Shown: positions 3,626 to 24,376, counted from the stretch's first letter. The stretch is 32,000 nt of DNA from Candidatus Poseidoniaceae archaeon (GCA_943789275.1 CALSTM010000002.1:60001-92000), one strand, 5' to 3'. Notes: generated by a model not told the origin, from the letters alone. Translations and numbers: made by a program.

Positions 3626-4621
3626 TCACTCGTTAAGACGAGCAATGAGATCTGCTTTCTTACCAGAAACTGGCTTTCCTGCAGCCTTGAGAAGCTCCTT
3701 GAGTTCTGCAACCTTCATCGATTCGTAGTCTGCAGTTGGTGCAGCCTCTTCAGCAGGTGCTTCTTCAGCAGGCGCTTCTTCAGCAGGCGCTTCTTCGGCA
3801 GGTGCTTCTTCGGCAGGTGCTTCTTCGGCAGGTGCCTTTTCAGATGCAGGTTCCATTGCTTCAGCAGCATCGATAATGGATGGAGTGGAATCTTCTTCCT
3901 CTTCATCTTCCATAGCAGATGCAAGTGCTGCTGCTTTCTTTGCTTTGATTTCCGCATCGCTGCGTGCTTCTTCAGCATGAATTTCATCAAGGGTTTTACC
4001 GTTATCAGCAACAACACCAGCTTGGAGCAATTGGCTCTTACGGATGGCGACCGACTTAACAGGGTAAATTGGTTTTACAGCCTTACGGATTTCTTCTTCG
4101 AGTGTTCCGTCAAGAATCTGGGTTTGAATCTTTGAGTAGGTTGCTTTTGAGGCAAAAGCAATGATCATGTCTCTGGCCTTCGCACGCATAGCTTGCTTAA
4201 TCGAGGTCTGAACACGCTTTTGGGTAATGATAAGCGGCTTAAGGCGAATCAGGTAACCGTCGGTCGAAACCACATCAACGACGTCATCGACTTTACCACG
4301 GTAGCGACGGATTTGTCGGCGGATGTGGTCGGTTTGGTGGTGGTGACCGATAAAAGTGGTTAGAGCATCTTGTCCAACGCACTCATGAACACGGAATCGA
4401 AGGATAACGTGCATCTTGGTAAAGTCGCCATTGAATTCTTGTTGTGTCATTTCATACACACGGCCGATAATGTGTTCATCGGACTCCCCGAGAGTCTCTC
4501 CTATTTTCTTAAAATCCCATGGTGATCGTGGGGCACGAATGGTGTACCAAATCTTGTTCTTCCACTTGTCACGTTGCTTACGTGCTGCTGCACGTGCCTT
4601 TACACTAATCTTTTTTGCCAT
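3626..4621 (-). CDS. rps3ae: 30S ribosomal protein eS1 (S3Ae) with C-terminal acidic repeat linker and SAP-like domain
   Basis: The N-terminal ~207 aa (KDKWKNKIWYTIRAP...GRVYE...FKLRF-type core) is clearly S3Ae. The C-terminal ~124 aa add (APAEE)x6 and MKVAELKELLKAAGKPVSGKKADLIARLNE. Confidence 0.92.
   Translation of the reverse strand: MAKKISVKARAAARKQRDKWKNKIWYTIRAPRSPWDFKKIGETLGESDEHIIGRVYEMTQQEFNGDFTKMHVILRFRVHECVGQDALTTFIGHHHQTDHIRRQIRRYRGKVDDVVDVVSTDGYLIRLKPLIITQKRVQTSIKQAMRAKARDMIIAFASKATYSKIQTQILDGTLEEEIRKAVKPIYPVKSVAIRKSQLLQAGVVADNGKTLDEIHAEEARSDAEIKAKKAAALASAMEDEEEEDSTPSIIDAAEAMEPASEKAPAEEAPAEEAPAEEAPAEEAPAEEAPAEEAAPTADYESMKVAELKELLKAAGKPVSGKKADLIARLNE
3741..3842. repeat. 15-bp tandem repeat, ~6.8 copies (GCAGGYGCTTCTTCR), coding (APAEE)n on the minus strand
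   Basis: Units read directly at 3753, 3768, 3783, 3798, 3813 and 3828, with a degenerate partial copy at 3741-3752. They differ only at synonymous or third positions. Confidence 0.95.
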
Positions 4622-11456: not shown

Positions 11457-12464
11457 TCAGCGACGTCGTGATGCACGCATGTCGATTTTACGCATCGACT
11501 TCTTCTTACCAGACTTCGATTTACGATTGCTCGAATTGCCAGTATCCCCTTGACCAATTCCGCCAAAGGTAATTCCACCCGAATTCAAGAGTTTGGAGAC
11601 AAGTTCGTCAGCAACTTCTTCCGATTCTGCTCCGGTTTTCATCTCTGCTTTGACCGAAGCATTGTGATCGGTCATCCATGACTTACGCTCATCACGAGCC
11701 ATGTTCAACTTGTCCCGGACCTTGTTGACATCGACCATGAGTTCAGTGATTTTGTTGTGCATCTCGTCAGACTTTTGACGCAATTCCAAAAATTCAGTAT
11801 GGAATCGGTCGCCTTCGGCCTTGAGGAAATCTCGGTGCGAAAAGGCTTCATCCACTTCTTTTGATATGGCATCTGCCCTTCCGACTGCTTCGAGCATGTC
11901 TTGATGGGCTGCGTCAGCTTCTGAACGAAGCAATTTGATGGCTGAATCCATGTCGCTAAGGTCAACGTTAATCATCTCAAATTGTGTGACCTCCGGTGCC
12001 AATTCCTTAATTCGGAGTTTCATCTCCTTGATTTTCTTAATCATTTCCTTTTCCTTCTTTTGACCTACTGAGGAGGTCTCAAATGTCTTTTCGAGTGATT
12101 GTACTTCGTGTCGTAACTTGGCATACTCTGCAGTAGCCGATTTCTTTTCGCCCTTTTCATCACGGCGGCCTTTCACTTGATTGATCACTTCGCGAAGTTG
12201 TTGCTGAAGAGCGTTACGCTTTTCCTTGAACATCTTAATTTCAGCACGGATGGCTTTGATTTCGGTGAGTACCAAGTCGACCTTTTCGCGGTGTTCCTTG
12301 TATTGACCCTGGATAGCGTTACGCTTATCGGCTACAGTACGAGCCTGGTCGCTGAAGGAATTGCGAGTATTTCGCATTTTTCGAACACGTGCTTCCATGC
12401 CCTGTAATTCTTCTCGCAATTCAGCATCAGGACTTGGAGTCGCATCGTCTGGTCTTCCGCGCAT
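11457..12464 (-). CDS. coiled-coil protein, paralog P1 of an archaeal ~300-aa coiled-coil family (COG1340-like), basic C-terminal tail
   Basis: Heptad-rich K/E/R sequence. The central motif LEKTFETSSVGQKKEKEMIKKIKEM (aa 124-148) is shared in position with P2 and P3. C-terminus carries LVSKLLNSGGITFGG and RKSKSGKKKSMRK. Confidence 0.75.
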   Translation of the reverse strand: MRGRPDDATPSPDAELREELQGMEARVRKMRNTRNSFSDQARTVADKRNAIQGQYKEHREKVDLVLTEIKAIRAEIKMFKEKRNALQQQLREVINQVKGRRDEKGEKKSATAEYAKLRHEVQSLEKTFETSSVGQKKEKEMIKKIKEMKLRIKELAPEVTQFEMINVDLSDMDSAIKLLRSEADAAHQDMLEAVGRADAISKEVDEAFSHRDFLKAEGDRFHTEFLELRQKSDEMHNKITELMVDVNKVRDKLNMARDERKSWMTDHNASVKAEMKTGAESEEVADELVSKLLNSGGITFGGIGQGDTGNSSNRKSKSGKKKSMRKIDMRASRRR

Positions 12465-12516: not shown

Positions 12517-14064
12517 TTACACACCGATGTTACCGAGTATTTCACTGACTTTGATGAACACTGCGGCAGTAATACCAAGGATTCCAAACAGTCCAGTGGT
12601 CACCGATGAAAAGCCGAGAATACGTTCAAGGAATTTTGTCCGTACACGGACGTTAATTTGGCGCCCAATAATGAGGTCACCGCTCTGTTCTTCGAGACGT
12701 ACAGAGACCGTTGCCTCTCCAAACCGCTCAGGAAGTAACGATTGCCAAGAAACGGTTCCGTCTCGCAATAAACCCGACATTAAGCCGAGAACATCCTCGT
12801 CTCCCTTTGCAGCGAGTGGGAGAGCCTTTGTCGACCACCAATGTTGTTCACCTGGATTAAGGCGGTAAGTCATGGCAATGTCGTGTGGACGGAAGTCTGG
12901 CGATTGGACCCGAAGCACTACGTTTCGCGGTGTTTCTGAAAGATTGTGAATCAACGTGAACAAATTTGCACGCTCATGAACCACATTCTCCATGTCGACT
13001 TCGAAGACAATGTCAGAATTGGTTGCCGCTCGACCAGCACCAAGGTCTTCCTCGATTCGACCGATCATGCGGAAGAAGGCTGGACATGAATGTTCAATGT
13101 GGTCGATGATAGAAAGCCATTCTTCCATCGTAAAGACGGGATGGTTCTTGACGAATTCCATTCCTTTGACATTCAAAACTTCTGACAACTCCGATTCCAT
13201 TGTCTTGTAATCGAGTCCCTTTGAATGCCGGTAAAGCGTCATCAAAATTTTCTCACGCGCATACTGAGGGTCCGTTCCTCGCTTGAGTTTTGACTCCAGT
13301 CCTTTCGAATAAACTTCGTAAACCGAACGCAACAAGGGGTCCATGTGCGTTTTAACCAAATCATCAAACACCATTTCAAGGGTCGAAGGGTGAATCGGTG
13401 GGTTGTATGCTTTCAACAGACCTGTTCGCTCGTCCATGTTAAACGGATAAGAACGAGTTGGGAAGTGCTGTGACAAGGACAACATCAGCGTCGAAAAGGA
13501 AAGTAAAAGCATGATACGACCGTTCAGTGAGGAGATATCAACAAAGAAAATCACAATCAAGAGTAGACTGGAGAGGATTCCAAAGGAAAGCGCCCAAGTG
13601 TGCTTCGATTTTGCGCCAGATAACTGGTCAGCGAGGCTTTCATAACCGTGCAAGGATTGTACAGAGAGATGTTCACCGTTGAGTCGTTCGACTTCCTGCT
13701 CGAAATTGTTCAAAGATAACTCAACACGGTGGCGATGAAAAGTTTGTGCGAGAATATAGCCGAGAAGGAGAACAAAGGTTAACGCCGTGAGAGCAATGGC
13801 GAAACTAATTCCCACGGTCGGTTCAATTTTCAACCACCATTCAGGTGACGAGGCTGAAAAAGCGAGAGCTCCAAAGTACGTGAAGAAGGAAAATGCCGGT
13901 AAAATCAGGACAAGACGCAATCCAGAGCCGAGTAATTGCCGGTCGATAGCAAACCAAAAACGTTCAGACATGAGTATACTTTCTTCCGAAGCAACTGGGT
14001 TTTTTCCATCGCTTGATGAATCAACCTCTTTGTCAACCATGTTTGTTCCACCAACCCTTTGCAC
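12517..14064 (-). CDS. hypothetical multi-pass membrane protein with large soluble domain and C-terminal TM
   Basis: About four N-terminal hydrophobic helices, a ~290-aa soluble region and the terminal helix GLFGILGITAAVFIKV. The start is GTG 14064 or, more likely, ATG 14040. No known motif. Confidence 0.6.
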   Translation of the reverse strand: MQRVGGTNMVDKEVDSSSDGKNPVASEESILMSERFWFAIDRQLLGSGLRLVLILPAFSFFTYFGALAFSASSPEWWLKIEPTVGISFAIALTALTFVLLLGYILAQTFHRHRVELSLNNFEQEVERLNGEHLSVQSLHGYESLADQLSGAKSKHTWALSFGILSSLLLIVIFFVDISSLNGRIMLLLSFSTLMLSLSQHFPTRSYPFNMDERTGLLKAYNPPIHPSTLEMVFDDLVKTHMDPLLRSVYEVYSKGLESKLKRGTDPQYAREKILMTLYRHSKGLDYKTMESELSEVLNVKGMEFVKNHPVFTMEEWLSIIDHIEHSCPAFFRMIGRIEEDLGAGRAATNSDIVFEVDMENVVHERANLFTLIHNLSETPRNVVLRVQSPDFRPHDIAMTYRLNPGEQHWWSTKALPLAAKGDEDVLGLMSGLLRDGTVSWQSLLPERFGEATVSVRLEEQSGDLIIGRQINVRVRTKFLERILGFSSVTTGLFGILGITAAVFIKVSEILGNIGV

Positions 14065-17255: not shown

Positions 17256-17314
17256 ACAACCCCCTCTGCACGGGGGTTCTTCACTTTCTCGCCTAATGAA
17301 GACACTACGCCATG

Positions 17315-17322
17315 TTTATTGA
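17315..17322 (+). promoter_or_regulatory. candidate TATA box (TTTATTGA) for the plus-strand coiled-coil/NTase operon
   Basis: Centred about 28 nt upstream of ATG 17347, in the 70-nt divergent intergenic region. Confidence 0.25.
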
Positions 17323-17346
17323 AGGTTGGAGACTGGCGCACTTTGT

Positions 17347-18213
17347 ATGGGTCCTGACGAGTTGCTGGAAATGACTCCCGCCTTGTTGGCGAAGTCGATT
17401 TTGCACCGACGCGAACGGCTTGCTGAAACCATTCCTGAGCAACTTGATGCTCGTCAAGACGAACTTCGAGCTGCTGAACCATTGGCTCGAAGTGCCAAAG
17501 AACAACGTGATGCTGTGAACGCTAAAGTTGCGAACCTGAAAAAGGAAAGAAATACAGCCCGAAAAAAGGCTCAAGAACTCTTCCGCCAAGCAGGGAAAAT
17601 TCGTGAAAGTATTGCCAACGCTGGTGGCGTGAAGGAAGCGAACCCAGAGTGGGCTCAATCGAAACTTGAAGACAAACTCAAGAAGATTGAACACGAATTG
17701 GAAACCAATGCCGGCAACCACAAGACCGAACAGAAATACCTCAAAGAAATGAAAGCATTGCTTCAGCAGCACGAAGATTGGGTGTCAAAAAGAAAAGACA
17801 ACCAAGACGAACATGCTGAAATGAAGAAAATGTATGACGATGCTCGAAACCAACTTTCCTTGTCAGAAAAGGCCCACAATGCTTTGCTTGACCACGCGAC
17901 TCAAAACGAATATTTCCACAACACCTACCTTGAGCAGGAAGCACACCGCCGTCGAGCAGACGCCCGCACCAAACGACTGGCTTTGGCACTCGACAGCAGT
18001 CAGAAGGGCATTGAACACTGGCAGAATCACATCGACAACGGATTTGATTCACTGCTTGAAAACGCACAACGTGTCAAAAACGGTGAACCGTCAAGTCACG
18101 CTCGCCGTCGAGCACGGAACAACAAGAAGGAATCGAAACCTGCCTCCTCTGGTCGATCAAAGAAAGAGCAACCCAAGCAACCCAAGCAAGCCAAGGGAGG
18201 CGAAGAAGAATGA
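17347..18213 (+). CDS. coiled-coil protein, paralog P2 (COG1340-like), K/R/Q-rich C-terminal tail
   Basis: Central motif IEHELETNAGNHKTEQKYLKEMKAL aligns by position with P1 and P3. Basic tail SSHARRRARNNKKESKP...KKEQPKQPKQAK. The track start 17326 is TTG, so I prefer ATG 17347 (17371 is also possible). The stop overlaps the next ATG (ATGA at 18210-18213). Confidence 0.72.
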   Translation: MGPDELLEMTPALLAKSILHRRERLAETIPEQLDARQDELRAAEPLARSAKEQRDAVNAKVANLKKERNTARKKAQELFRQAGKIRESIANAGGVKEANPEWAQSKLEDKLKKIEHELETNAGNHKTEQKYLKEMKALLQQHEDWVSKRKDNQDEHAEMKKMYDDARNQLSLSEKAHNALLDHATQNEYFHNTYLEQEAHRRRADARTKRLALALDSSQKGIEHWQNHIDNGFDSLLENAQRVKNGEPSSHARRRARNNKKESKPASSGRSKKEQPKQPKQAKGGEEE

Positions 18214-20378
18214 GCGATGAATGCCCCATCACGGGTTTTGATAACGCTCAGCAACATCGCTGGCCACTCGTTCACCAGTACCTTTGCGATAAACTCGAAT
18301 TACCAAACGGCGATGGACTGGAGACTTCCGCAATGGAAAAACTCTCCAAAGACATCGAAAAAACACTTTACGAACAACGCCCAAACGCTTCGATGTTGAA
18401 AAAGCGAAAGGGCTTGTATGAGCATTTGAAACGAACCGTGGAACGGAGATTCAAGGGCAGTTCTCTGCGACAATTTGGTTCTTCAGCATCCGGACTTTCA
18501 CTCTCCAGCGGTGACATGGACCTCTGTTTATTGTTGAACGACCAAAAGCCAAAGAAAATCCTCCGTTCCCTTTCAAACACGCTGAAGAATCAGGACATGG
18601 AAGACATTCAAGTGATTGCTTCGGCTAAAGTCCCGATCATCAAGTTCACCGATGAACGCACCAAAATCCCAGTTGACATTTCCATCAACAACACACTGGC
18701 CTTGCACAACACGACGCTCCTCAAGCGGTATGGAGACATGGATGAACGCATCCAGAACAGCATTCTTGCCGTCAAGTATTGGGCCTCACAACGGGATGTT
18801 GGTGATGCAGCAAAGGGTACCTTCTCGTCCTATGCTTGGAGCATCATCATGCTGCAAGCACTTCAGACAACATCACCGCCAGTTGCTCCAAACATTCAAT
18901 CCGGTAAAGAACGCACGCACCTCAAGGTAGACGGAATCGAATACGACCTCACGATGGCTGAGAATCCTGAGGATTTACTCAACGAAAAGAACACCCAATC
19001 GGTTGGAGAATTGTTCACGCACTTCATCAAACAATTGGTGCTTGAGCGGCCTTGGGAAGAGCACGTGCTTTCGATTCGAAGCGGACAACCTATCGGTCGG
19101 AACGAGAAGAAATGGAAATACGGCAAACCGCACGCCTCGACTGCTGTTGTCATGGGTGGCAAAACGCGCCTTGGCCTGCATTCGTTCCCTGTTGAAGACC
19201 CCTTCAACCACGAGCATGACTTGAGTCGGGTTCTTCGCCCCGAAGGCGCCCTTGACATTCAAGAAGAACTGTTCCGATTCTGGCTGGAACTCAACCAAGG
19301 AAAGAACTGGAATGAATTGTGTCAGCTCAAGAATCCAGAACGATTCCCTGTAGTTGAAGAAAAAGACCTGTTTGAAGACTTACGAACGCTTGCAAAAGCC
19401 GACTTCGAATTGAAAGTCAAAGCGAACAGTGAACAACTTACCGACCTTGAAGGTCGTATTGAAATGCTTCACCAAGAGCGACAAAACAACATCAAAATTT
19501 CTCAGGCACTGCGTGGCCTGTTTGAAGAAACCAGCGACTTGCGCAACGAACACCGTAAAATCGTCCGCAGCCTTCGCCCTCGCAGTGACAAAATGAATGC
19601 ACTGCAGGAAAAGCGAGACCAACTCAATCAAAAGATTGGGATTCCACTTTACAGAATCCGAGAATTAATTCTCGAAGTGTACAACAATCTCACTGACGAT
19701 GTCGACTTTTTCCAAGTCCCATCGCTTCAGCGCGAAGATGAACAATTTGCTTGGTTCTTCGAATTGCAAGCCATGCATGCCGTGGCATTGGAAGCAGATA
19801 CAGCGCACAAGGAATTCATCTCATTGGTCCGAGAGCAGAAGAAGGCGGTTAAAGATTTGAAAATCACTGAAAACAAGCAATCCGAAGTTCGAGCAGAAAT
19901 GGTGAACTCCGAACCAATTCTTGCGAACATCACCACTGAATTCAGCGAAGCCAGACAATTCGACCAGAACGCGCATTCCCTCAACAAAGTGATTCAAGAA
20001 CGACGTCGAGAGATGCGACAATTGCGCCGAGAGAAAGGTCGATTGGATGCATGGGCTCGTATTTCTGCCAAAGGAACATCAACACGAAAACCCGGCAAGA
20101 GAGATGGTAAGCGTAAATCCAAGTCGGGCCAAGCGGATTGGAAGCCTCGGAACAACGGACCTCGCCCTGAAGAAGTTCAGCACCGAGCTGCTACCGGCGG
20201 TGCACTCTCCCTCTCGGACCTGGATGTCCTCCTCAACAGCGGTGGAATTGCCTCGGTGAACACATCCAAGCCAACACCGAAATCCACCCGAAGAGCAGAA
20301 CGCAAAAAGAAGCAAAACCGCAACTTAACCGTTCGACGCGGTGAGCGCTCTCAATCTACAAAAGGGCGTAAAGAGTGA
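18210..20378 (+). CDS. Cid1/Trf4-like (non-canonical poly(A)/poly(U) polymerase-type) nucleotidyltransferase fused to a COG1340-like coiled coil and basic tail
   Basis: FGSSASGLSLSSGDMDLCLLL, AKVPIIKFTDERTKIPVDISINN, VKYWASQRDVGDAAKGTFSSYAWSIIMLQALQ..PPVAPNIQ and FPVEDPFNHEHDLSRVL form the NTase plus PAP-associated signature. The coiled coil spans aa ~385-640, followed by LLNSGGI and a K/R tail. GGGAGG Shine-Dalgarno at 18195-18200. Confidence 0.8.
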   Translation: MSDECPITGFDNAQQHRWPLVHQYLCDKLELPNGDGLETSAMEKLSKDIEKTLYEQRPNASMLKKRKGLYEHLKRTVERRFKGSSLRQFGSSASGLSLSSGDMDLCLLLNDQKPKKILRSLSNTLKNQDMEDIQVIASAKVPIIKFTDERTKIPVDISINNTLALHNTTLLKRYGDMDERIQNSILAVKYWASQRDVGDAAKGTFSSYAWSIIMLQALQTTSPPVAPNIQSGKERTHLKVDGIEYDLTMAENPEDLLNEKNTQSVGELFTHFIKQLVLERPWEEHVLSIRSGQPIGRNEKKWKYGKPHASTAVVMGGKTRLGLHSFPVEDPFNHEHDLSRVLRPEGALDIQEELFRFWLELNQGKNWNELCQLKNPERFPVVEEKDLFEDLRTLAKADFELKVKANSEQLTDLEGRIEMLHQERQNNIKISQALRGLFEETSDLRNEHRKIVRSLRPRSDKMNALQEKRDQLNQKIGIPLYRIRELILEVYNNLTDDVDFFQVPSLQREDEQFAWFFELQAMHAVALEADTAHKEFISLVREQKKAVKDLKITENKQSEVRAEMVNSEPILANITTEFSEARQFDQNAHSLNKVIQERRREMRQLRREKGRLDAWARISAKGTSTRKPGKRDGKRKSKSGQADWKPRNNGPRPEEVQHRAATGGALSLSDLDVLLNSGGIASVNTSKPTPKSTRRAERKKKQNRNLTVRRGERSQSTKGRKE

Positions 20379-20387
20379 GGGTTACCG

Positions 20388-20864
20388 ATGGGCAACATCC
20401 AGTGGGTGTACGGTTTCGAACCAAAGACGCTCTCGGATGACTGGAAAGAAAAAGTGAGGTCGCTCTTCCTCCAAGAAACAGGAGAACGCTACACTCTTGA
20501 ATCGATTTCGAATTTGCCCATTCCGCAATGGAGTGGGAATATGCTGCTGCTCGATAACGACAGGTATCCTCATCCGGAGTCCCTACTCGGCCTGATGTGG
20601 GCCTTACCGCACGAAGAGCACGGCGTTCGAATAGCAGCCTTTGTCATCGACTCAAACCATCAGTCCGCCGGATGGGGTGGAAAAGCTTGGGACCACTTGG
20701 TCGAAATCGCACTCTCCGCAGGAAAGACAACCATTCAACTTGAAGTCAAGGCCGAAAACATTCGGGCACAAAATTTCTACACTGCAAGGAATTTGAAAGT
20801 CGTTCAACATCTATCAAACTACTATGCATCAGGACTTGGTTACATGATGAAAGGACCCATTTGA
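20388..20864 (+). CDS. GNAT-family N-acetyltransferase (RimI/Ard1-like size)
   Basis: 158 aa. The acetyl-CoA motif A region is VIDSNHQSAGWGGKAWDHLVEIA, followed by NIRAQNFYTARNLKVV. SD-like GAGG lies 7 nt upstream, and the gap to the NTase gene is 9 nt. Confidence 0.85.
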   Translation: MGNIQWVYGFEPKTLSDDWKEKVRSLFLQETGERYTLESISNLPIPQWSGNMLLLDNDRYPHPESLLGLMWALPHEEHGVRIAAFVIDSNHQSAGWGGKAWDHLVEIALSAGKTTIQLEVKAENIRAQNFYTARNLKVVQHLSNYYASGLGYMMKGPI

Positions 20865-20930
20865 GAAGTGTTCTCTTCTCAATCTTCGTTCAAGGTCAAA
20901 GGTTATGCCCCCCCGATGCTTCGATGAAGC

Positions 20931-21251
20931 GTGGAACCCCTCTTGCTTCGTGACATAGCAGCCCAATCCGGCGTTACCGGTGCTGCTTTACTCGACGGAG
21001 AAGGTTTTGTGCTGCACAGCGAACCTCAACACGATGACAGCGTTCAGGATTTAGGTAAAGCGATCGCCCTTCTTGACCCGAGTTTTTCCAGTGGTCGAGT
21101 CACGTTGAACGGTGAGAGCGGTACGATCATTGTGCAAGAATTATCAGGAAACCGAGTTTTAGTCGTACGGTGCTTACCCTCCTCAAACCTCGGCCAATTG
21201 CGTCATGTACTTGACCAGGCCGTGGCTCGATTCAACACCCTCATACCTTAG
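20931..21251 (+). CDS. Roadblock/LC7 (MglB-like) domain protein
   Basis: 106 aa. The pattern L..IA..SGVTGAALLDGEGFVLHS....D....LGKAIA.L, then G.I.V.EL.GN.VLVV, is typical of Roadblock/LC7. GTG start. Confidence 0.75.
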   Translation: MEPLLLRDIAAQSGVTGAALLDGEGFVLHSEPQHDDSVQDLGKAIALLDPSFSSGRVTLNGESGTIIVQELSGNRVLVVRCLPSSNLGQLRHVLDQAVARFNTLIP

Positions 21252-21378
21252 AACGGTTGTTTTCAGGACCACAATGGGCCACTTGAGTCTGGATTATCAA
21301 GTGAAGAGATTAAATGTAAAGGGTCGGTCGCAAGGCCAGTGAGAAGATGGGAATCTTCCACGACCAGGTGAGATACGA

Positions 21379-22266
21379 ATGGATGAACTAAAACCTCAAC
21401 TCGAAGAACGACGAAAGATGGTCGATGAAAAGGCTACAAAATACCGTACTCTTCGAGATGAGTGTAACGATAATTCCAAGAAATTCACCGCCACACGAAA
21501 CGAAATGAACGGCGAAGTACGCGAACTTATTGTCCAAGTTCGTGAACAACGTGAAATTCGAGAACAAATGAACGAAATCGTTCGTGAAAAGAAGAGCATT
21601 CGGCTTGAAGCAAACAAGAAAGTTCGTGAAGCAAAAGACGCTCTCAATGAAGCAAAGGGGCCAGAAGCCGCTCCACAACGAGATGAAGGACGCCGTGGTC
21701 GTCGAGACCGCCCAGACACCATTCACTCCCTGCGAAGAGAATTGATTCGATTGGAAAACGAATTCGAAATGGGACGTCACACCGGTAAGAACGAAACCAA
21801 AGTCATGAAGCGCATGAAGGAAATCAGCGCTAAAATCCAAAAGATGAAGATTTCGGAAGACTCCAACACCGACCTCAAAGAATCCCGCGAAGCACTTCGC
21901 ATCGCTATGGAAACCCAAGAAACGGCCCACGCCGCAGTTGAACAAGCAGCCGAAGCCGCTCAAGAAGCGCACGATTTGATGCTCCAATGGAACAAGGAAG
22001 TTGACAACCAACGAGAAAAGGCAGAATCTGCTCACCGAAAGTTGCGTACTTCCAAGAAGGAAGCAGACAAGAATCACCGCGCTTACATCGTTTCGCTGCG
22101 ATGCTTGCACTCCATTCAAGACATACTCCGTGCAATGCGTGGCGCAAGTGCAGGTGCTGGACAACGGCCAAATGCACGCGTCGAAGTTCAAGATTTGATG
22201 GGCAAGTTGATGTCTGGAGAGACACTCTCGACCGAAGAATTGATGCAACTTCAGCGCTACGACTGA
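21379..22266 (+). CDS. coiled-coil protein, paralog P3 (COG1340-like)
   Basis: Central motif LENEFEMGRHTGKNETKVMKRMKEIS at the same position as in P1 and P2. C-terminus DLMGKLMSGETLSTEELMQLQ. AGGTGA Shine-Dalgarno at 21366-21371. Confidence 0.75.
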   Translation: MDELKPQLEERRKMVDEKATKYRTLRDECNDNSKKFTATRNEMNGEVRELIVQVREQREIREQMNEIVREKKSIRLEANKKVREAKDALNEAKGPEAAPQRDEGRRGRRDRPDTIHSLRRELIRLENEFEMGRHTGKNETKVMKRMKEISAKIQKMKISEDSNTDLKESREALRIAMETQETAHAAVEQAAEAAQEAHDLMLQWNKEVDNQREKAESAHRKLRTSKKEADKNHRAYIVSLRCLHSIQDILRAMRGASAGAGQRPNARVEVQDLMGKLMSGETLSTEELMQLQRYD

Positions 22267-22329
22267 ACGCCATCAATGCGATGAGATGAAAGACCCCCCC
22301 ATCTACACTTACATTACCGAGGGAACACC

Positions 22330-23556: not shown

Positions 23557-24376
23557 ATGCCTGAAGGTCCAGAAATACATCGCGCTGCGTCAAAGATTCG
23601 CAATGCGCTTGAAGGCAAGACCATCGAAGACGTTGAGATCACCCTTCCACGCTATGAAGAACGCGCCAACGAGTTCCTCGACAAGACCGTTCTCAAAGTC
23701 GAGGCGAGAGGAAAGGCCATGTTGATTCACTTTCGACACCTTTGTCCTGTACAGTCACAACCAGTTGTACGGACGATGGACGGTCAACCGGAGAGCGACT
23801 GAGCCCAAAAAGTGGAACCGTTCACTGAGGATTGCACTTTCAACCAAGACCCATACCTGCCGATTGTGGTCTGCCACCGACATTCTCATGCTCGAACCTT
23901 GGGAGGTCTCTGGCCACCAATACATCGCTAAACTCGGGCCCGATGTTGTCATTGATGAGACGACACCCGAGCAGTTGATTGAGCACATCAGCCAAAAACG
24001 GTTCCAACGCAAACGCCTGAAGACGTTGTTGCTCGACCAGGGTTTCTTTGCAGGCATTGGAAATTACCTGCGCAGTGAAGTGTTGTTCACTGCCAAACTC
24101 CATCCCGACCGAACTGTCGCCTCATTGGACGATGCTGAGAAGCGAAAGCTGGCTGAACAAGCATTGTTCCTTTCTCGTCAATCCTACAAGGTACCTGGAA
24201 TCACTGTGGATTTGGAACTCTATGAGCAATTGAGAGACATTGGCCTTTCCAGAGGCCAAGCACGGCACTGGGTGTTCACTCGCAATGACCGGCCGTGCCA
24301 TCAGTGTGGAGACTTGATACTGCATACAAGGCCTGGTGGCAGGCGGCTTGACTATTGTCCGACCTGTCAACACTAA
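23557..24376 (+). pseudogene. nei: endonuclease VIII / Fpg-Nei family DNA glycosylase, interrupted by an apparent +1 frameshift near 23726-23747
   Basis: Frame 1 reads MPEGPEI...EARGKAMLIHF. Frame 2 reads LYSHNQLYGRWTV...GPDV...LLDQGFFAGIGNYLRSEVLF...CHQCG...YCPTCQH. Together these form a complete Nei (catalytic N-terminus, H2TH, zinc finger). The split lies at a T-run. Confidence 0.88.

What the first reader, a model, noticed from the sequence alone, without database searches (positions are those of the whole stretch)
17315..22266. Tightly linked plus-strand module: coiled-coil P2 / NTase-coiled-coil / GNAT / Roadblock-LC7 / coiled-coil P3
Seen directly: the P2 stop overlaps the NTase ATG (ATGA at 18210-18213) with a GGGAGG Shine-Dalgarno. 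The GNAT starts 9 nt after the NTase stop with its own SD. Roadblock follows after 66 nt and P3 after 127 nt with an AGGTGA SD. All five genes are on one strand, behind a single TATA-like element at 17315-17322. P2 and the NTase both end in K/R-rich tails. Inference: P2 and the NTase may heterodimerise through their homologous coiled coils, giving an RNA-binding tailing complex. The GNAT and the Roadblock protein (which normally partners with small GTPases or longin-like regulators) would be accessory or regulatory parts. I know of no described system with this composition.
Basis: inference. Interest (0 to 1): 0.7.

Follow-up and report, generated by a model that had tools for sequence, protein, structure and literature searches.

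The report
Eukaryote-type RNA uridylyltransferase operon in marine archaea
Marine Group II archaea (Poseidoniales) carry a conserved gene cluster built around an RNA-tailing enzyme of a type otherwise found only in eukaryotes, fused to an archaeal-style coiled coil and partnered with three small proteins, which suggests that RNA 3'-end uridylation may occur outside eukaryotes.

Summary
The five ORFs, their junctions and their Shine-Dalgarno sites are exactly as described. The window is Poseidoniales (Marine Group II archaea) chromosome. The 722-aa protein has a genuine Cid1/TUT4/TUT7/URT1-type terminal nucleotidyltransferase core. Its catalytic G-S and three Asp residues are invariant in 78/78 species representatives, and the UTP-selecting His is present in 74/78. 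Every named relative outside Poseidoniales is eukaryotic. The core is fused to a roughly 225-residue helical coiled coil and a K/R-rich tail. P2 and P3 belong to DUF7121/COG1340, archaeal coiled-coil proteins of unknown function, as does a third copy, P1, at 11457-12464(-). The 106-aa protein has a Roadblock fold (TM 0.80-0.86). The GNAT is distantly Nat/RimI-like. Gene order is kept in all retrieved loci from at least 78 species, and the P2/NTase overlap is kept in 82/82.

Two corrections apply. P3 has its own conserved TATA-like element and a covarying leader hairpin, and an opposite-strand gene separates it from the cluster in 16 loci, so the core is P2-NTase-GNAT-Roadblock. Homology of the NTase coiled coil to DUF7121 is only suggestive, and is closest to P1 rather than P2.

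The most likely function is an RNA 3'-uridylating complex. That function, the complex and co-transcription are inferred. No description was found in the searchable literature.

The parts
17315..17322 (+). TATA-like promoter element of P2 (TTTATTGA), about 25-32 nt upstream of ATG 17347
   Evidence: Conserved as TTTATT[CG]AAGG in this range upstream of the start in most clades sampled, and a few nt further upstream in one clade. Its promoter function is inferred.
17347..18213 (+). P2: a 288-aa coiled-coil protein, a divergent DUF7121/COG1340 family member with a K/R-rich tail. Its last codons carry the NTase Shine-Dalgarno site.
   Evidence: The window copy has no Pfam hit. Orthologs hit PF23435. 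hhalign gives probability 95, E 3.8e-8 against P3 and probability 93 against P1, with reversed controls at E 0.2-0.4. Orthologs are present in 82 loci.
18195..18213 (+). Start/stop-overlap junction suggesting translational coupling: GGGAGG (18195-18200), then ATGA in which the P2 stop overlaps the NTase start (18210-18213)
   Evidence: the overlap is -4 in 73/82 loci and -1 in 9/82, with a conserved GGTGA/GGAGG motif.
18210..19331 (+). NTase catalytic module (aa 1-374): Cid1/TUT-type Pol-beta nucleotidyltransferase domain plus PAP-associated domain. Key residues are G90-S91, D102, D104, D156 and H336 (codon 19215-19217).
   Evidence: PF22600 at 1.5e-33. PDB TUT4 at 6.6e-47, URT1 at 8e-38, Cid1 at 1e-30. 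Catalytic residues are invariant in 78/78 and His336 is present in 74/78. His336 aligns with the corresponding His of URT1 and TUT7.
19395..20069 (+). NTase C-terminal helical coiled-coil region (about aa 396-620), carrying family-specific motifs such as VPSLxxExxxFxWFFELQAMH
   Evidence: AF2 on aa 375-722 gives pLDDT 80.5, with helices at fragment residues 22-101, 106-121, 132-193 and 204-246. Invariant columns are listed. Foldseek returns only generic coiled coils.
20070..20378 (+). NTase K/R-rich, mostly disordered tail with a conserved LLNSGG motif and a terminal N-L-x-x-x-R-G-x-R motif, both shared with the tail of P1
   Evidence: (tail-only hhalign E 3e-4, reversed control 0.5).
20388..20864 (+). 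Small GNAT acetyltransferase (158 aa), distantly Nat/RimI-like, with a Q-x-x-G-x-G acetyl-CoA motif
   Evidence: PF00583 at 3.3e-9. rimI TIGR01575 scores 37 bits, below its 86-bit cutoff. PDB hits are N-terminal acetyltransferases at 8e-5 to 2e-4. The gap to the NTase has a median of 8 nt across 81 loci.
20931..21251 (+). Roadblock/LC7/MglB-fold protein (106 aa, GTG start)
   Evidence: AF2 gives pLDDT 85 and an a-b-b-a-b-b-b-a topology. Foldseek PDB top hits are 7f8m, 9jue, LAMTOR2 and MglB, at E 1e-7 and TM 0.80-0.86. Divergent orthologs of about 84 aa align with it.
21310..21361 (+). P3's own promoter-like element (TTAAATG, 21310-21316), a conserved GGTCGC (21326-21331) and a leader hairpin GTG-A-GAAGAT[GGGA]ATCTTC-CAC (21339-21361)
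   Evidence: Alignment of 46 loci. RNAalifold and pair counts show 85 double-change cells against 33 +/- 5.5 in shuffles (0/500), and a covariation score of 0.51 against 0.06-0.21 in slid controls. No Rfam match.
21379..22266 (+). P3: a canonical DUF7121/COG1340 coiled-coil protein (295 aa). It is probably a separate transcription unit and a neighbour rather than a core member of the module.
   Evidence: PF23435 at 5.2e-16. It shows 57-98% identity across loci where the NTase shows 36-96%. A minus-strand KaiC-like gene separates it from the Roadblock gene in 16 loci.
11457..12464 (-). P1: a third DUF7121 paralog (335 aa) in the syntenic block, and the closest relative of the NTase C-terminal region and tail
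   Evidence: hhalign P1-P3 gives probability 100, E 9e-54. P1 against the NTase C-terminal region gives E 7e-4, probability 26. Tail against tail gives probability 39.

Best explanation
The core is a vertically inherited operon found in Poseidoniales: P2, NTase, GNAT and Roadblock. It encodes a eukaryote-type (Cid1/TUT4/TUT7/URT1 family) terminal nucleotidyltransferase.

Shown:
- The catalytic core is intact and under purifying selection, and it carries the His that selects UTP in Cid1 and TUT7.
- The core is fused to a long helical coiled coil followed by a disordered K/R-rich tail that ends in an invariant short motif.
- The upstream gene P2 is a DUF7121/COG1340 coiled-coil protein with a basic tail. 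Its stop codon overlaps the NTase start codon.
- A small GNAT and a Roadblock-fold protein follow within 8 nt and 25-72 nt respectively.

Inferred:
- The conserved start/stop overlap couples P2 and NTase translation and keeps the two proteins in fixed proportion.
- The two proteins assemble through their coiled coils into an elongated complex.
- Their basic tails bind RNA, or an RNA-containing particle such as the ribosome.
- The enzyme adds non-templated U, or short U-rich tails, to RNA 3' ends, most plausibly to mark RNAs for decay or quality control as in eukaryotes.
- The Roadblock dimer would dock on a helical segment of the scaffold, as Roadblock proteins do on the dynein intermediate chain and on LAMTOR1. 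The GNAT would acetylate lysines of the basic tails or of a substrate protein to tune binding.
- The catalytic module was most parsimoniously acquired from a eukaryote by an ancestor of Poseidoniales and then fused to a host coiled-coil module.

P3 is a neighbouring housekeeping paralog with its own promoter and leader, and is not an obligate part of the module.
For: Enzyme identity:
- PF22600 at 1.5e-33.
- PDB TUT4 at 6.6e-47, TUT7 at 5.9e-45, URT1 at 8e-38 and Cid1 at 1e-30.
- G90, S91, D102, D104 and D156 are invariant in 78/78 species representatives, and H336 is present in 74/78.
- H336 aligns with the His of URT1 (DPFETSHDL) and of TUT7 (DPFDLNHNL).

Eukaryotic affinity:
- An exhaustive HMMER search of 1.84 billion cluster representatives returned about 14 Poseidoniales-type representatives, followed directly by TUT4/7-like proteins (E 4e-60, 34% identity).
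- Of the 20 relatives looked up, every one that carries a taxon name is a eukaryote: Physella, Tegillarca, Pavlovales, Filamoeba, Fabomonas, Pigoraptor, Prasinoderma, Rozella, Basidiobolus and Ramicandelaber.
- The literature treats TUTases as eukaryotic (PMC11646218).

Operon:
- The order P2-NTase-GNAT-Roadblock is kept in all loci from 78 or more species.
- The P2/NTase overlap is -4 or -1 in 82/82 loci with a conserved SD. The NTase-GNAT gap has a median of 8 nt and the GNAT-Roadblock gap is 25-72 nt.
- The P2 promoter motif is conserved.

Scaffold:
- AF2 predicts helices of 80, 62 and 43 residues followed by a disordered basic tail.
- P2 belongs to DUF7121.
- P2 evolutionary distances track the NTase coiled coil best (raw r 0.79, partial r 0.59) and the GNAT next (0.42).

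Roadblock fold.

Not a defence island: no PADLOC hits, and the chromosomal context is fixed.
Against: - No biochemical or transcript data exist. Substrate, nucleotide specificity, complex formation and co-transcription are all inferred.
- The whole block of about 11 genes, from P1 to PurP, is syntenic across the order. Conservation of adjacency therefore does not by itself prove functional linkage.
- The NTase coiled coil is not demonstrably homologous to P2 (hhalign probability 2).
- Mirror-tree partial correlations reach 0.8 for apparently unrelated pairs such as U515 and PurP, so 0.59 is weak evidence.
- One divergent lineage (P0285/L085) keeps the synteny and the coiled coil but has lost the GS, DxD and third-Asp residues. 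A non-catalytic scaffold role can therefore suffice there.
- A conserved motif upstream of the Roadblock gene could be an internal promoter.
- Roadblock proteins normally partner with small GTPases, and none is encoded nearby.
- His336 is replaced by R, L or V in 4/78 representatives.
Confidence: 0.5

Rival explanations
1. This is conserved synteny without a shared function. The five genes are independent housekeeping genes that remain neighbours because gene order in this chromosomal region is frozen across Poseidoniales.
For: - The syntenic block extends well beyond the module. P1, a 515-aa membrane protein, an Fe-dependent repressor and a CARDB/zinc-ribbon membrane protein lie upstream, and PurP lies downstream.
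- P3 has its own promoter-like element and leader.
- Conserved motifs also precede the Roadblock and PurP genes.
Against: - The P2 stop/NTase start overlap is kept in 82/82 loci with a conserved SD inside P2.
- The NTase-GNAT gap has a median of 8 nt and ranges from -26 to 28, which leaves no room for a promoter.
- P2, the NTase, the GNAT and the Roadblock protein evolve at similar fast rates, unlike P3 and PurP.
- P2 distances co-vary most with the NTase coiled coil.
Confidence: 0.15
2. The protein acts mainly as a coiled-coil scaffold of the DUF7121/COG1340 system, whatever cellular structure that family builds. The NTase domain serves as a regulatory, ligand-binding or pseudo-enzymatic head rather than as an RNA-tailing enzyme.
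For: - Three DUF7121 paralogs (P1, P2, P3) cluster in the same block.
- The NTase C-terminal region and tail resemble P1 co-linearly (E 7e-4; tail E 3e-4; shared LLNSGG and terminal MRK..M.A.R / N-L...RG.R motifs).
- Lineage P0285 has lost the catalytic residues but keeps the coiled coil at high similarity.
- Roadblock proteins are typical adaptors of structural or regulatory assemblies.
Against: - All catalytic residues are invariant in 78/78 species representatives and the nucleotide-selecting His is retained in 74/78. This indicates selection for catalysis.
- Similarity to active TUTases extends over the whole catalytic and PAP-associated module.
Confidence: 0.2
3. The enzyme is a non-canonical poly(A) or mixed-nucleotide polymerase (Trf4/Gld2/CutA-like) rather than a uridylyltransferase. 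It would, for example, supply A-rich tails for exosome-mediated decay.
For: - The same fold and family include PAPs and the C/U-adding CutA. PDB hits include CutA at 5e-36 and Gld2 at 4e-30.
- His336 is not universal: R, L or V occurs in 4/78.
- In archaea, the tails known so far are A-rich and made by the exosome (my own knowledge, not tested here).
Against: - The best-scoring relatives are uridylyltransferases (TUT4, TUT7, URT1).
- The His that confers UTP preference in Cid1 and TUT7 is aligned and present in 74/78.
Confidence: 0.12
4. It is a mobile defence or toxin-antitoxin-like module, with the NTase and GNAT acting on tRNA 3' ends as MenT/AbiEii and TacT/AtaT do.
For: NTases and GNATs both occur as tRNA-targeting toxins (my own knowledge). 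The genes are compact and tightly linked.
Against: - PADLOC gives no hit for the NTase, the GNAT or the Roadblock protein. Only spurious SMC-like coiled-coil matches appear for P1 and P2.
- The position is fixed and syntenic in every species, among housekeeping genes.
- There is no antitoxin-like gene.
- The NTase belongs to the Cid1/TUT family and not to the MenT/AbiEii family.
Confidence: 0.03

Closest known systems
Eukaryotic terminal uridylyltransferases of the Cid1 family (S. pombe Cid1, human TUT4/ZCCHC11 and TUT7/ZCCHC6, Arabidopsis URT1)
   Same: - They share the Pol-beta NTase domain and PAP-associated domain, at 30-34% identity and E 1e-30 to 1e-60.
- They share the G-S motif and three catalytic Asp residues.
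- The His that selects UTP aligns.
   Different: - The host is an archaeon.
- There are no zinc knuckles, no C2H2 finger and no duplicated inactive NTase module.
- There is a Poseidoniales-specific insertion of about 13-20 residues before the DPF motif.
- The C-terminal fusion to a roughly 225-residue coiled coil and basic tail is absent from the eukaryotic enzymes.
- The gene sits in an operon with DUF7121, GNAT and Roadblock genes.
Two-component tailing complexes in which the NTase relies on a partner for RNA binding (Gld2-Gld3/RNP-8; Trf4-Air2-Mtr4 TRAMP)
   Same: The logic is analogous: a catalytic subunit without a classical RNA-binding domain, plus an accessory subunit. Here the candidates are P2 and the basic tails. 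This is an inference.
   Different: The partners are unrelated in sequence. No helicase or zinc-knuckle protein is present. The interaction has not been shown here.
DUF7121 (PF23435) / COG1340 archaeal coiled-coil proteins
   Same: P3 (E 5e-16), P1 and, more remotely, P2 are members. The family is conserved in archaea and its function is unknown (PMC1322226).
   Different: Three paralogs lie in one block. One of them (P2) has a stop codon that overlaps the start of an NTase gene, suggesting translational coupling. The NTase carries a possibly related C-terminal module, but that homology is unproven.
Roadblock/LC7/MglB modules (MglA-MglB, Ragulator-Rag, Asgard Roadblock proteins, dynein LC7)
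   Same: The fold is the same (TM 0.80-0.86), including the C-terminal helix seen in MglB-type members.
   Different: No small GTPase is encoded in the neighbourhood. The sequence is below the Pfam cutoff. It is linked to an NTase and a GNAT instead.
N-terminal/ribosomal-protein acetyltransferases (archaeal Ard1/Naa10-like, bacterial RimI)
   Same: It shares the GNAT core and the Q-x-x-G-x-G motif. These are its best PDB and NCBIfam matches.
   Different: The scores are far below the equivalog cutoffs (37 bits against 86). It has a family-specific 60-residue N-terminal region. Its substrate is unknown.

Membership tests
Cid1/TENT family terminal nucleotidyltransferases (PF22600 + PF03828) | Pol-beta NTase motif hG[GS] ... 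DxD ... D (three metal-binding carboxylates) | tested here: met
   F89-G90-S91, D102, D104 and D156 are invariant in 78/78 species representatives. PF22600 at 1.5e-33.
Cid1/TENT family terminal nucleotidyltransferases (PF22600 + PF03828) | PAP-associated / PAP-OAS1 substrate-binding domain following the NTase domain | tested here: met
   In the window copy PF03828 scores 21.5 bits against a 22.6-bit cutoff, but it is recorded for most orthologs. Alignments to URT1 and Cid1 run through residues 355-357, including the E-D-P-F motif.
Cid1/TENT family terminal nucleotidyltransferases (PF22600 + PF03828) | UTP-selecting histidine in the nucleotide-recognition motif (Cid1 H336 / TUT7 H1286; numbering recalled from memory) | tested here: met
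   The window His336 in DPFNHEHDL aligns with the His of URT1 (DPFETSHDL) and of TUT7 (DPFDLNHNL). It is present in 74/78.
Cid1/TENT family terminal nucleotidyltransferases (PF22600 + PF03828) | Template-independent nucleotide addition to RNA 3' ends | not testable with these tools
   This requires a biochemical assay.
Roadblock/LC7/MglB (PF03259) | alpha-beta-beta-alpha-beta-beta-beta(-alpha) Roadblock fold | tested here: met
   AF2 gives pLDDT 85. Foldseek PDB top hits are all Roadblock, LAMTOR or MglB, at E 1e-7 and TM 0.80-0.86.
Roadblock/LC7/MglB (PF03259) | Sequence match above the Pfam gathering score | tested here: not met
   It scores 19 bits against a 23-bit cutoff, over residues 4-38 only. 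Of 21 orthologs, 6 match at E <= 0.05.
Roadblock/LC7/MglB (PF03259) | Genomic or functional pairing with a small Ras-like GTPase | tested here: not met
   No GTPase domain appears among the neighbouring genes in the window or in related loci. A partner encoded elsewhere cannot be excluded.
DUF7121 / COG1340 archaeal coiled-coil proteins (PF23435) | Profile match over the full ~300-aa coiled-coil architecture: P3 and P1 | tested here: met
   P3 hits PF23435 at 5.2e-16, 59 bits against a 29-bit cutoff. P1 orthologs hit PF23435. hhalign P1-P3 gives probability 100.
DUF7121 / COG1340 archaeal coiled-coil proteins (PF23435) | Profile match: P2 | tested here: met
   The window P2 alone has no Pfam hit. 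Orthologs in L003, L005 and L085 hit PF23435. hhalign P2-P3 gives probability 95, E 3.8e-8, with reversed controls at E 0.3-0.4. hmmsearch with the P3 HMM against P2 gives 1.6e-10.
DUF7121 / COG1340 archaeal coiled-coil proteins (PF23435) | Profile match: NTase C-terminal region (aa 375-722) | tested here: inconclusive
   hhalign gives probability 26, E 7e-4 against P1 (co-linear over 201-275 columns), probability 2 against P2 and probability 1 against P3. Tail against tail gives probability 39, E 3e-4. Reversed controls give 0.03-0.5. hmmsearch gives E 0.14-0.45.
RimI / Ard1 N-terminal acetyltransferases | Match above the equivalog cutoff | tested here: not met
   TIGR01575 scores 37 bits against an 86-bit cutoff. 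PDB hits reach only 8e-5 to 1e-2. Membership of the GNAT superfamily (PF00583, 37.5 bits against 20.7) is met.
   A conserved TATA-like element and a covarying leader hairpin precede P3. In 16 loci an opposite-strand gene lies between the Roadblock gene and P3. Direct transcript evidence cannot be obtained with these tools.
Known anti-phage defence systems (PADLOC) | Match to a defence-system protein model | tested here: not met
   The NTase, GNAT, Roadblock protein and P3 have no hits. P1 and P2 give only weak SMC-like coiled-coil matches.

The most novel reading that the evidence does not exclude
Poseidoniales, among the most abundant archaea of the surface ocean, possess an RNA 3'-uridylation pathway. 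A Cid1/TUT-type enzyme was captured from a eukaryote at the base of the order, fused to a host COG1340-like coiled coil, and operates as a P2-NTase(-Roadblock-GNAT) complex. This would be the first prokaryotic RNA-uridylating machine and the first functional handle on the conserved archaeal COG1340/DUF7121 family.
Probability: 0.35. Interest if true: 0.85.

Novelty: new variant of a known kind. Interest (0 to 1): 0.64.

Why it matters
Non-templated RNA uridylation by Cid1-family enzymes is regarded as a eukaryotic trait (PMC11646218, PMC4442281). Here an intact enzyme of that family is under purifying selection in at least 123 species-level genomes of one archaeal order. It has a new domain fusion and fixed operon partners.

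This has three consequences:
- It would extend uridylation-type RNA tailing to archaea.
- It offers a clean case of eukaryote-to-archaeon transfer followed by domestication.
- It links the functionally uncharacterised but widely conserved archaeal COG1340/DUF7121 coiled-coil family, and a GTPase-less Roadblock protein, to a concrete enzymatic activity that can be assayed with recombinant proteins.

Poseidoniales are uncultured. Testable hypotheses derived from sequence are therefore the main route to their cell biology.

Tried and rejected
1. Pairwise BLASTP among P2, P3 and the NTase C-terminal region was not significant, so I moved to profile methods.
2. A homolog search with P3 returned only Poseidoniales proteins in its top 120. 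It therefore said nothing about COG1340 gene neighbourhoods in other archaea.
I redid it with proteins from the last homolog search.
5. A PDB search with NTase residues 290-380 alone found nothing. A longer fragment gave the URT1 and TUT7 alignments.
6. Oligo-T terminators after the Roadblock gene occur in only 8/52 loci, so they do not help define transcription units.
7. Rfam (gathering and E <= 1) gave no family for the P3 leader or anything else.
8. PADLOC gave no defence hits.
9. Literature searches for DUF7121, Poseidoniales with nucleotidyltransferase, Marine Group II with uridylyltransferase, and Cid1 with archaea and HGT found no description. COG1340 is mentioned only as 'archaeal proteins of unknown function'.
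10. I considered and rejected TTG 17326 as the P2 start. The conserved TATA-like element sits at a conserved distance (about 25-32 nt) from ATG 17347, and orthologs start there.
11. I did not use the sigma-70 promoter/terminator scanner, because the organism is an archaeon.

Full report
**1. The observation**

The region holds five + strand ORFs at the coordinates given:
- P2, 17326/17347-18213
- a 722-aa nucleotidyltransferase (NTase), 18210-20378
- a 158-aa GNAT, 20388-20864
- a 106-aa ORF with a GTG start, 20931-21251
- P3, 21379-22266

The junction details are exact.
- ATGA lies at 18210-18213, preceded by GGGAGG at 18195-18200.
- The gap before the GNAT is 9 nt, with GAGGG overlapping the NTase stop.
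- The gap before the Roadblock-like ORF is 66 nt.
- The gap before P3 is 127 nt, with AGGTGA at 21366-21371.

The basic tails are real. The median K+R fraction in the last 45 residues is 0.33 for NTase orthologs, 0.22 for P2, 0.27 for P1 and 0.13 for P3.

**2. Organism and conservation**

Homologs of the NTase are full-length proteins of about 686-730 aa, down to 37% identity, from marine metagenomes. Where named, they come from Poseidoniales / 'Euryarchaeota archaeon' MAGs.

A scan of one genome per GTDB species found 123 relatives, of which 78 distinct loci were retrieved. All are Poseidoniales-type MAGs, apart from two bins with evidently wrong bacterial labels.

An ORF-by-ORF comparison shows the same order in essentially every locus. 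On the minus strand lie P1, a 515-aa membrane protein, an Fe-dependent repressor and a CARDB/zinc-ribbon membrane protein. On the plus strand lie P2, NTase, GNAT, Roadblock, P3 and PurP.

However, because synteny covers the whole block, adjacency alone is not evidence of shared function.

Spacing is more telling.
- The P2 stop and NTase start overlap by 4 nt in 73/82 loci and by 1 nt in 9/82, always with GGTGA/GGAGG about 9 nt upstream.
- NTase-GNAT gaps have a median of 8 nt (range -26 to 28).
- GNAT-Roadblock gaps are 25-72 nt.
- Roadblock-P3 gaps are 88-156 nt.

Evolutionary rates also separate the genes. Where the NTase is 36-45% identical to the window copy, P2, GNAT and Roadblock are 25-51% identical. 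P3 is 57-72% and PurP 86-92%.

**3. The enzyme**

The N-terminal 375 residues are a Cid1-family terminal nucleotidyltransferase.
- PF22600 hits at 1.5e-33, with weaker NTP_transf_2, TUTase and PAP_assoc hits.
- The best solved relatives are TUT4 (6.6e-47), TUT7 (5.9e-45), URT1 (8e-38), CutA, Cid1 (1e-30) and Gld2.
- F-G-S(89-91), D102, D104 and D156 are invariant in 78/78 species representatives.
- His336 in DPFNHEHDL aligns with the His of URT1 (DPFETSHDL) and TUT7 (DPFDLNHNL). By established structural work on Cid1 and TUT7 (my knowledge), this residue confers UTP preference. It is present in 74/78.

An exhaustive HMMER search of 1.84 billion cluster representatives with residues 1-380 returned about 14 representatives with the Poseidoniales architecture. 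The next hits were long TUT4/7-like proteins (E 4e-60, 34% identity). I looked up 20 of these relatives. Each that carries a taxon name is eukaryotic: molluscs, a haptophyte, an amoebozoan, Fabomonas, Pigoraptor, Prasinoderma and fungi.

Reviews describe TUTases and non-canonical PAPs as eukaryotic (PMC11646218, PMC4442281). I found no paper on an archaeal member. The most parsimonious reading is a single eukaryote-to-archaeon transfer into the Poseidoniales stem. This is an inference, because no rooted tree was made.

**4. The C-terminal half of the NTase**

AF2 on residues 375-722, with 33 sequences, gives pLDDT 80.5. It predicts helices of 80, 16, 62 and 43 residues, followed by a low-confidence basic tail. 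The region is not generic. It contains invariant motifs such as VPSLxxExxxFxWFFELQxMH and RRExGRLxAW, and an invariant terminal N-[LF]-x3-R-G-x-R-x4-K. Foldseek against the PDB finds only generic antiparallel coiled coils.

**5. The coiled-coil proteins**

P3 is a clear DUF7121 (PF23435) member, E 5e-16. JGI names orthologs 'uncharacterized coiled-coil DUF342 family protein', which I equate with COG1340 from my own knowledge of the COG name. COG1340 is a conserved archaeal group of unknown function (PMC1322226).

P1 (11457-12464, minus strand) is a close paralog: hhalign probability 100, E 9e-54. P2 is a remote member. It gives probability 95, E 3.8e-8 against P3 and probability 93 against P1. 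Reversed-profile controls give E 0.2-0.4, and hmmsearch gives 1e-6 to 1e-10. Orthologs of P2 hit PF23435 directly.

The NTase C-terminal region is only suggestively related.
- Against P1 it gives E 7e-4, probability 26, co-linear over 201-275 columns. Reversed controls give 0.03-0.05.
- Against P2 it gives probability 2, and against P3 probability 1.
- hmmsearch gives E 0.14-0.45.

The best-supported piece is the tail. P1 reads ...LLNSGGI...KKKSMRKIDMRASRRR. The NTase reads ...LLNSGGI...KK...N-L-x-x-x-R-G-x-R. The tail-only hhalign gives E 3e-4, probability 39, with a reversed control of 0.5. A shared short C-terminal motif suggests a common docking partner, which is an inference.

If the fusion partner was a DUF7121 protein, it resembled P1 more than P2.

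**6. The small proteins**

The 106-aa ORF scores below the Pfam cutoff for Robl_LC7 (19 bits against 23). Its AF2 model (pLDDT 85, a-b-b-a-b-b-b-a) matches Asgard Roadblock proteins, LAMTOR2 and MglB at TM 0.80-0.86 and E about 1e-7. In a divergent clade it shrinks to about 84 aa but stays directly after the GNAT. No GTPase gene is nearby.

The GNAT has the Q-x-x-G-x-G motif. It is most similar to N-terminal acetyltransferases (Ard1, RimI), but far below the equivalog cutoffs.

**7. Transcription units**

The TATA-like TTTATTGA at 17315-17322 is conserved as TTTATT[CG]AAGG. In most clades it lies about 25-32 nt upstream of ATG 17347, and in one clade a few nt further. This supports it as the P2 promoter and a leaderless or short-leader mRNA.

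P3 does not depend on that promoter alone.
- Across 46 loci, the Roadblock-P3 spacer holds a BRE-like purine run and an invariant TTAAATG-type box (21310-21316), followed by GGTCGC.
- A hairpin follows (21339-21361, GGGA loop). Its inner pairs covary (AU/GC/UA): 85 double-change cells against 33 +/- 5.5 in shuffles (0/500 reach the observed value), and a covariation score of 0.51 against 0.06-0.21 for slid partners.
- Then comes GAACAGGTG and the ATG.
- In 16 loci a minus-strand KaiC/RecA-like ATPase gene sits between the Roadblock gene and P3.

P3 is therefore best treated as a neighbour with its own regulation. A conserved motif also precedes the Roadblock gene (20896-20914) and could be an internal promoter. 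Oligo-T runs do not define terminators here.

**8. Mechanism**

I propose that P2 and the NTase are made in fixed proportion, because of the conserved start/stop overlap, and assemble through their coiled coils. I propose that the basic tails bind RNA or an RNP, and that the enzyme adds U or short U-rich tails to RNA 3' ends. The Roadblock protein would act as a helix-binding adaptor and the GNAT as a modifier of the lysine-rich tails or of a substrate.

The following are shown:
- the enzyme family, the intact active site and the conserved His
- the domain fusion
- the family assignments of P2, P3 and P1
- the Roadblock fold
- the conserved overlap and spacing
- the distribution across the order

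The following are inferred:
- translational coupling of P2 and the NTase
- RNA as substrate, and U specificity
- the P2-NTase complex
- the roles of the Roadblock protein and the GNAT
- horizontal transfer from a eukaryote

A mirror-tree test gives modest support. P2 distances correlate best with the NTase coiled coil (raw 0.79; partial 0.59) and next with the GNAT (0.42). However, unrelated pairs reach 0.8, so this is weak.

One observation cuts the other way. The divergent lineage P0285/L085 keeps the synteny and a well-conserved coiled coil but has lost the GS, DxD and third-Asp residues. A non-catalytic scaffold role therefore exists at least there.

**9. Comparison and novelty**

The catalytic module meets every sequence-testable criterion of the Cid1/TUT family. 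The whole differs from known members in several ways: the domain of life, the lack of zinc knuckles, the coiled-coil/basic-tail fusion, a lineage-specific insertion before the DPF motif, and the operon partners. It is not a defence system, and no Rfam element is present.

I rate it a new variant of a known kind. The enzyme class is known, while its occurrence in archaea, its architecture and its partners appear undescribed. Interest is moderately high because uridylation-type tailing outside eukaryotes would surprise RNA biologists. The module also offers an assayable entry point to COG1340 and to a GTPase-less Roadblock protein in an abundant, uncultured archaeal order.

Noticed in passing
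window 21310-21378: The P3 leader has a conserved TATA-like TTAAATG and a GGTCGC box. It also has a hairpin (21339-21361, GGGA loop) with strongly covarying inner pairs across 46 Poseidoniales loci. No Rfam family matches. It may be a cis-regulatory, possibly autoregulatory, RNA element for the COG1340 gene.
   Followed up: yes
L085:7147-9228 (protein P0285): A divergent lineage keeps the full synteny and a well-conserved coiled coil, but its NTase has lost the G-S motif, both DxD aspartates, the third Asp and the DPF motif. It is an apparent pseudo-enzyme.
   Followed up: partly
L056:9873-10598(-), L043:9990-10718(-) and 14 other loci: A highly conserved (77-95% identity) KaiC/RecA-like ATPase gene of about 241 aa is inserted on the opposite strand between the Roadblock gene and P3 in one clade. 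It is absent from the window.
   Followed up: partly
window 11457-12464 (-) and 20280-20378 (+): P1 and the NTase share a C-terminal short linear motif set: LLNSGGI, a K-rich stretch, then M/N-[RL]-x-A/x-x-R-[RG]. The motif is invariant among NTase orthologs, which suggests a common docking partner.
   Followed up: partly
window 17273-17294: The motif GGGGGTTCTTCACYTTC[TA]CGCC is conserved in the divergent intergenic region between the CARDB/zinc-ribbon membrane protein gene (-) and P2 (+). Its role is unknown. It could be an operator, and an Fe-dependent repressor gene lies adjacent.
   Followed up: no
window 20896-20914 and 22270-22291: Two conserved intergenic motifs of similar style ('AAAG...' followed by a C-run) lie upstream of the Roadblock gene (TCAAAGGTTATGCCCCCCC) and of PurP (GATGAGATGAAAGACCCCCCC). 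They may be promoters or processing signals.
   Followed up: no
window 23557-24376 (+): The Fpg/Nei-type DNA glycosylase gene is split by a frameshift near 23732 (frame 1 to frame 2). It is an intact 272-aa ORF in L009. This is either an assembly or sequencing error or a pseudogene.
   Followed up: yes
window 3626-4621 (-): Ribosomal protein S3Ae carries a C-terminal SAP domain (PF02037, 7.8e-13), an unusual fusion for an archaeal ribosomal protein.
   Followed up: no
protein P0057 (860 aa): One NTase homolog contains an exact internal duplication of about 170 residues of the coiled coil. This is either an assembly artefact or a recent tandem duplication.
   Followed up: no
window 12517-14064 (-): A conserved 515-aa multi-pass membrane protein between P1 and the Fe-dependent repressor has no Pfam or PDB match. 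It is syntenic in all loci.
   Followed up: partly
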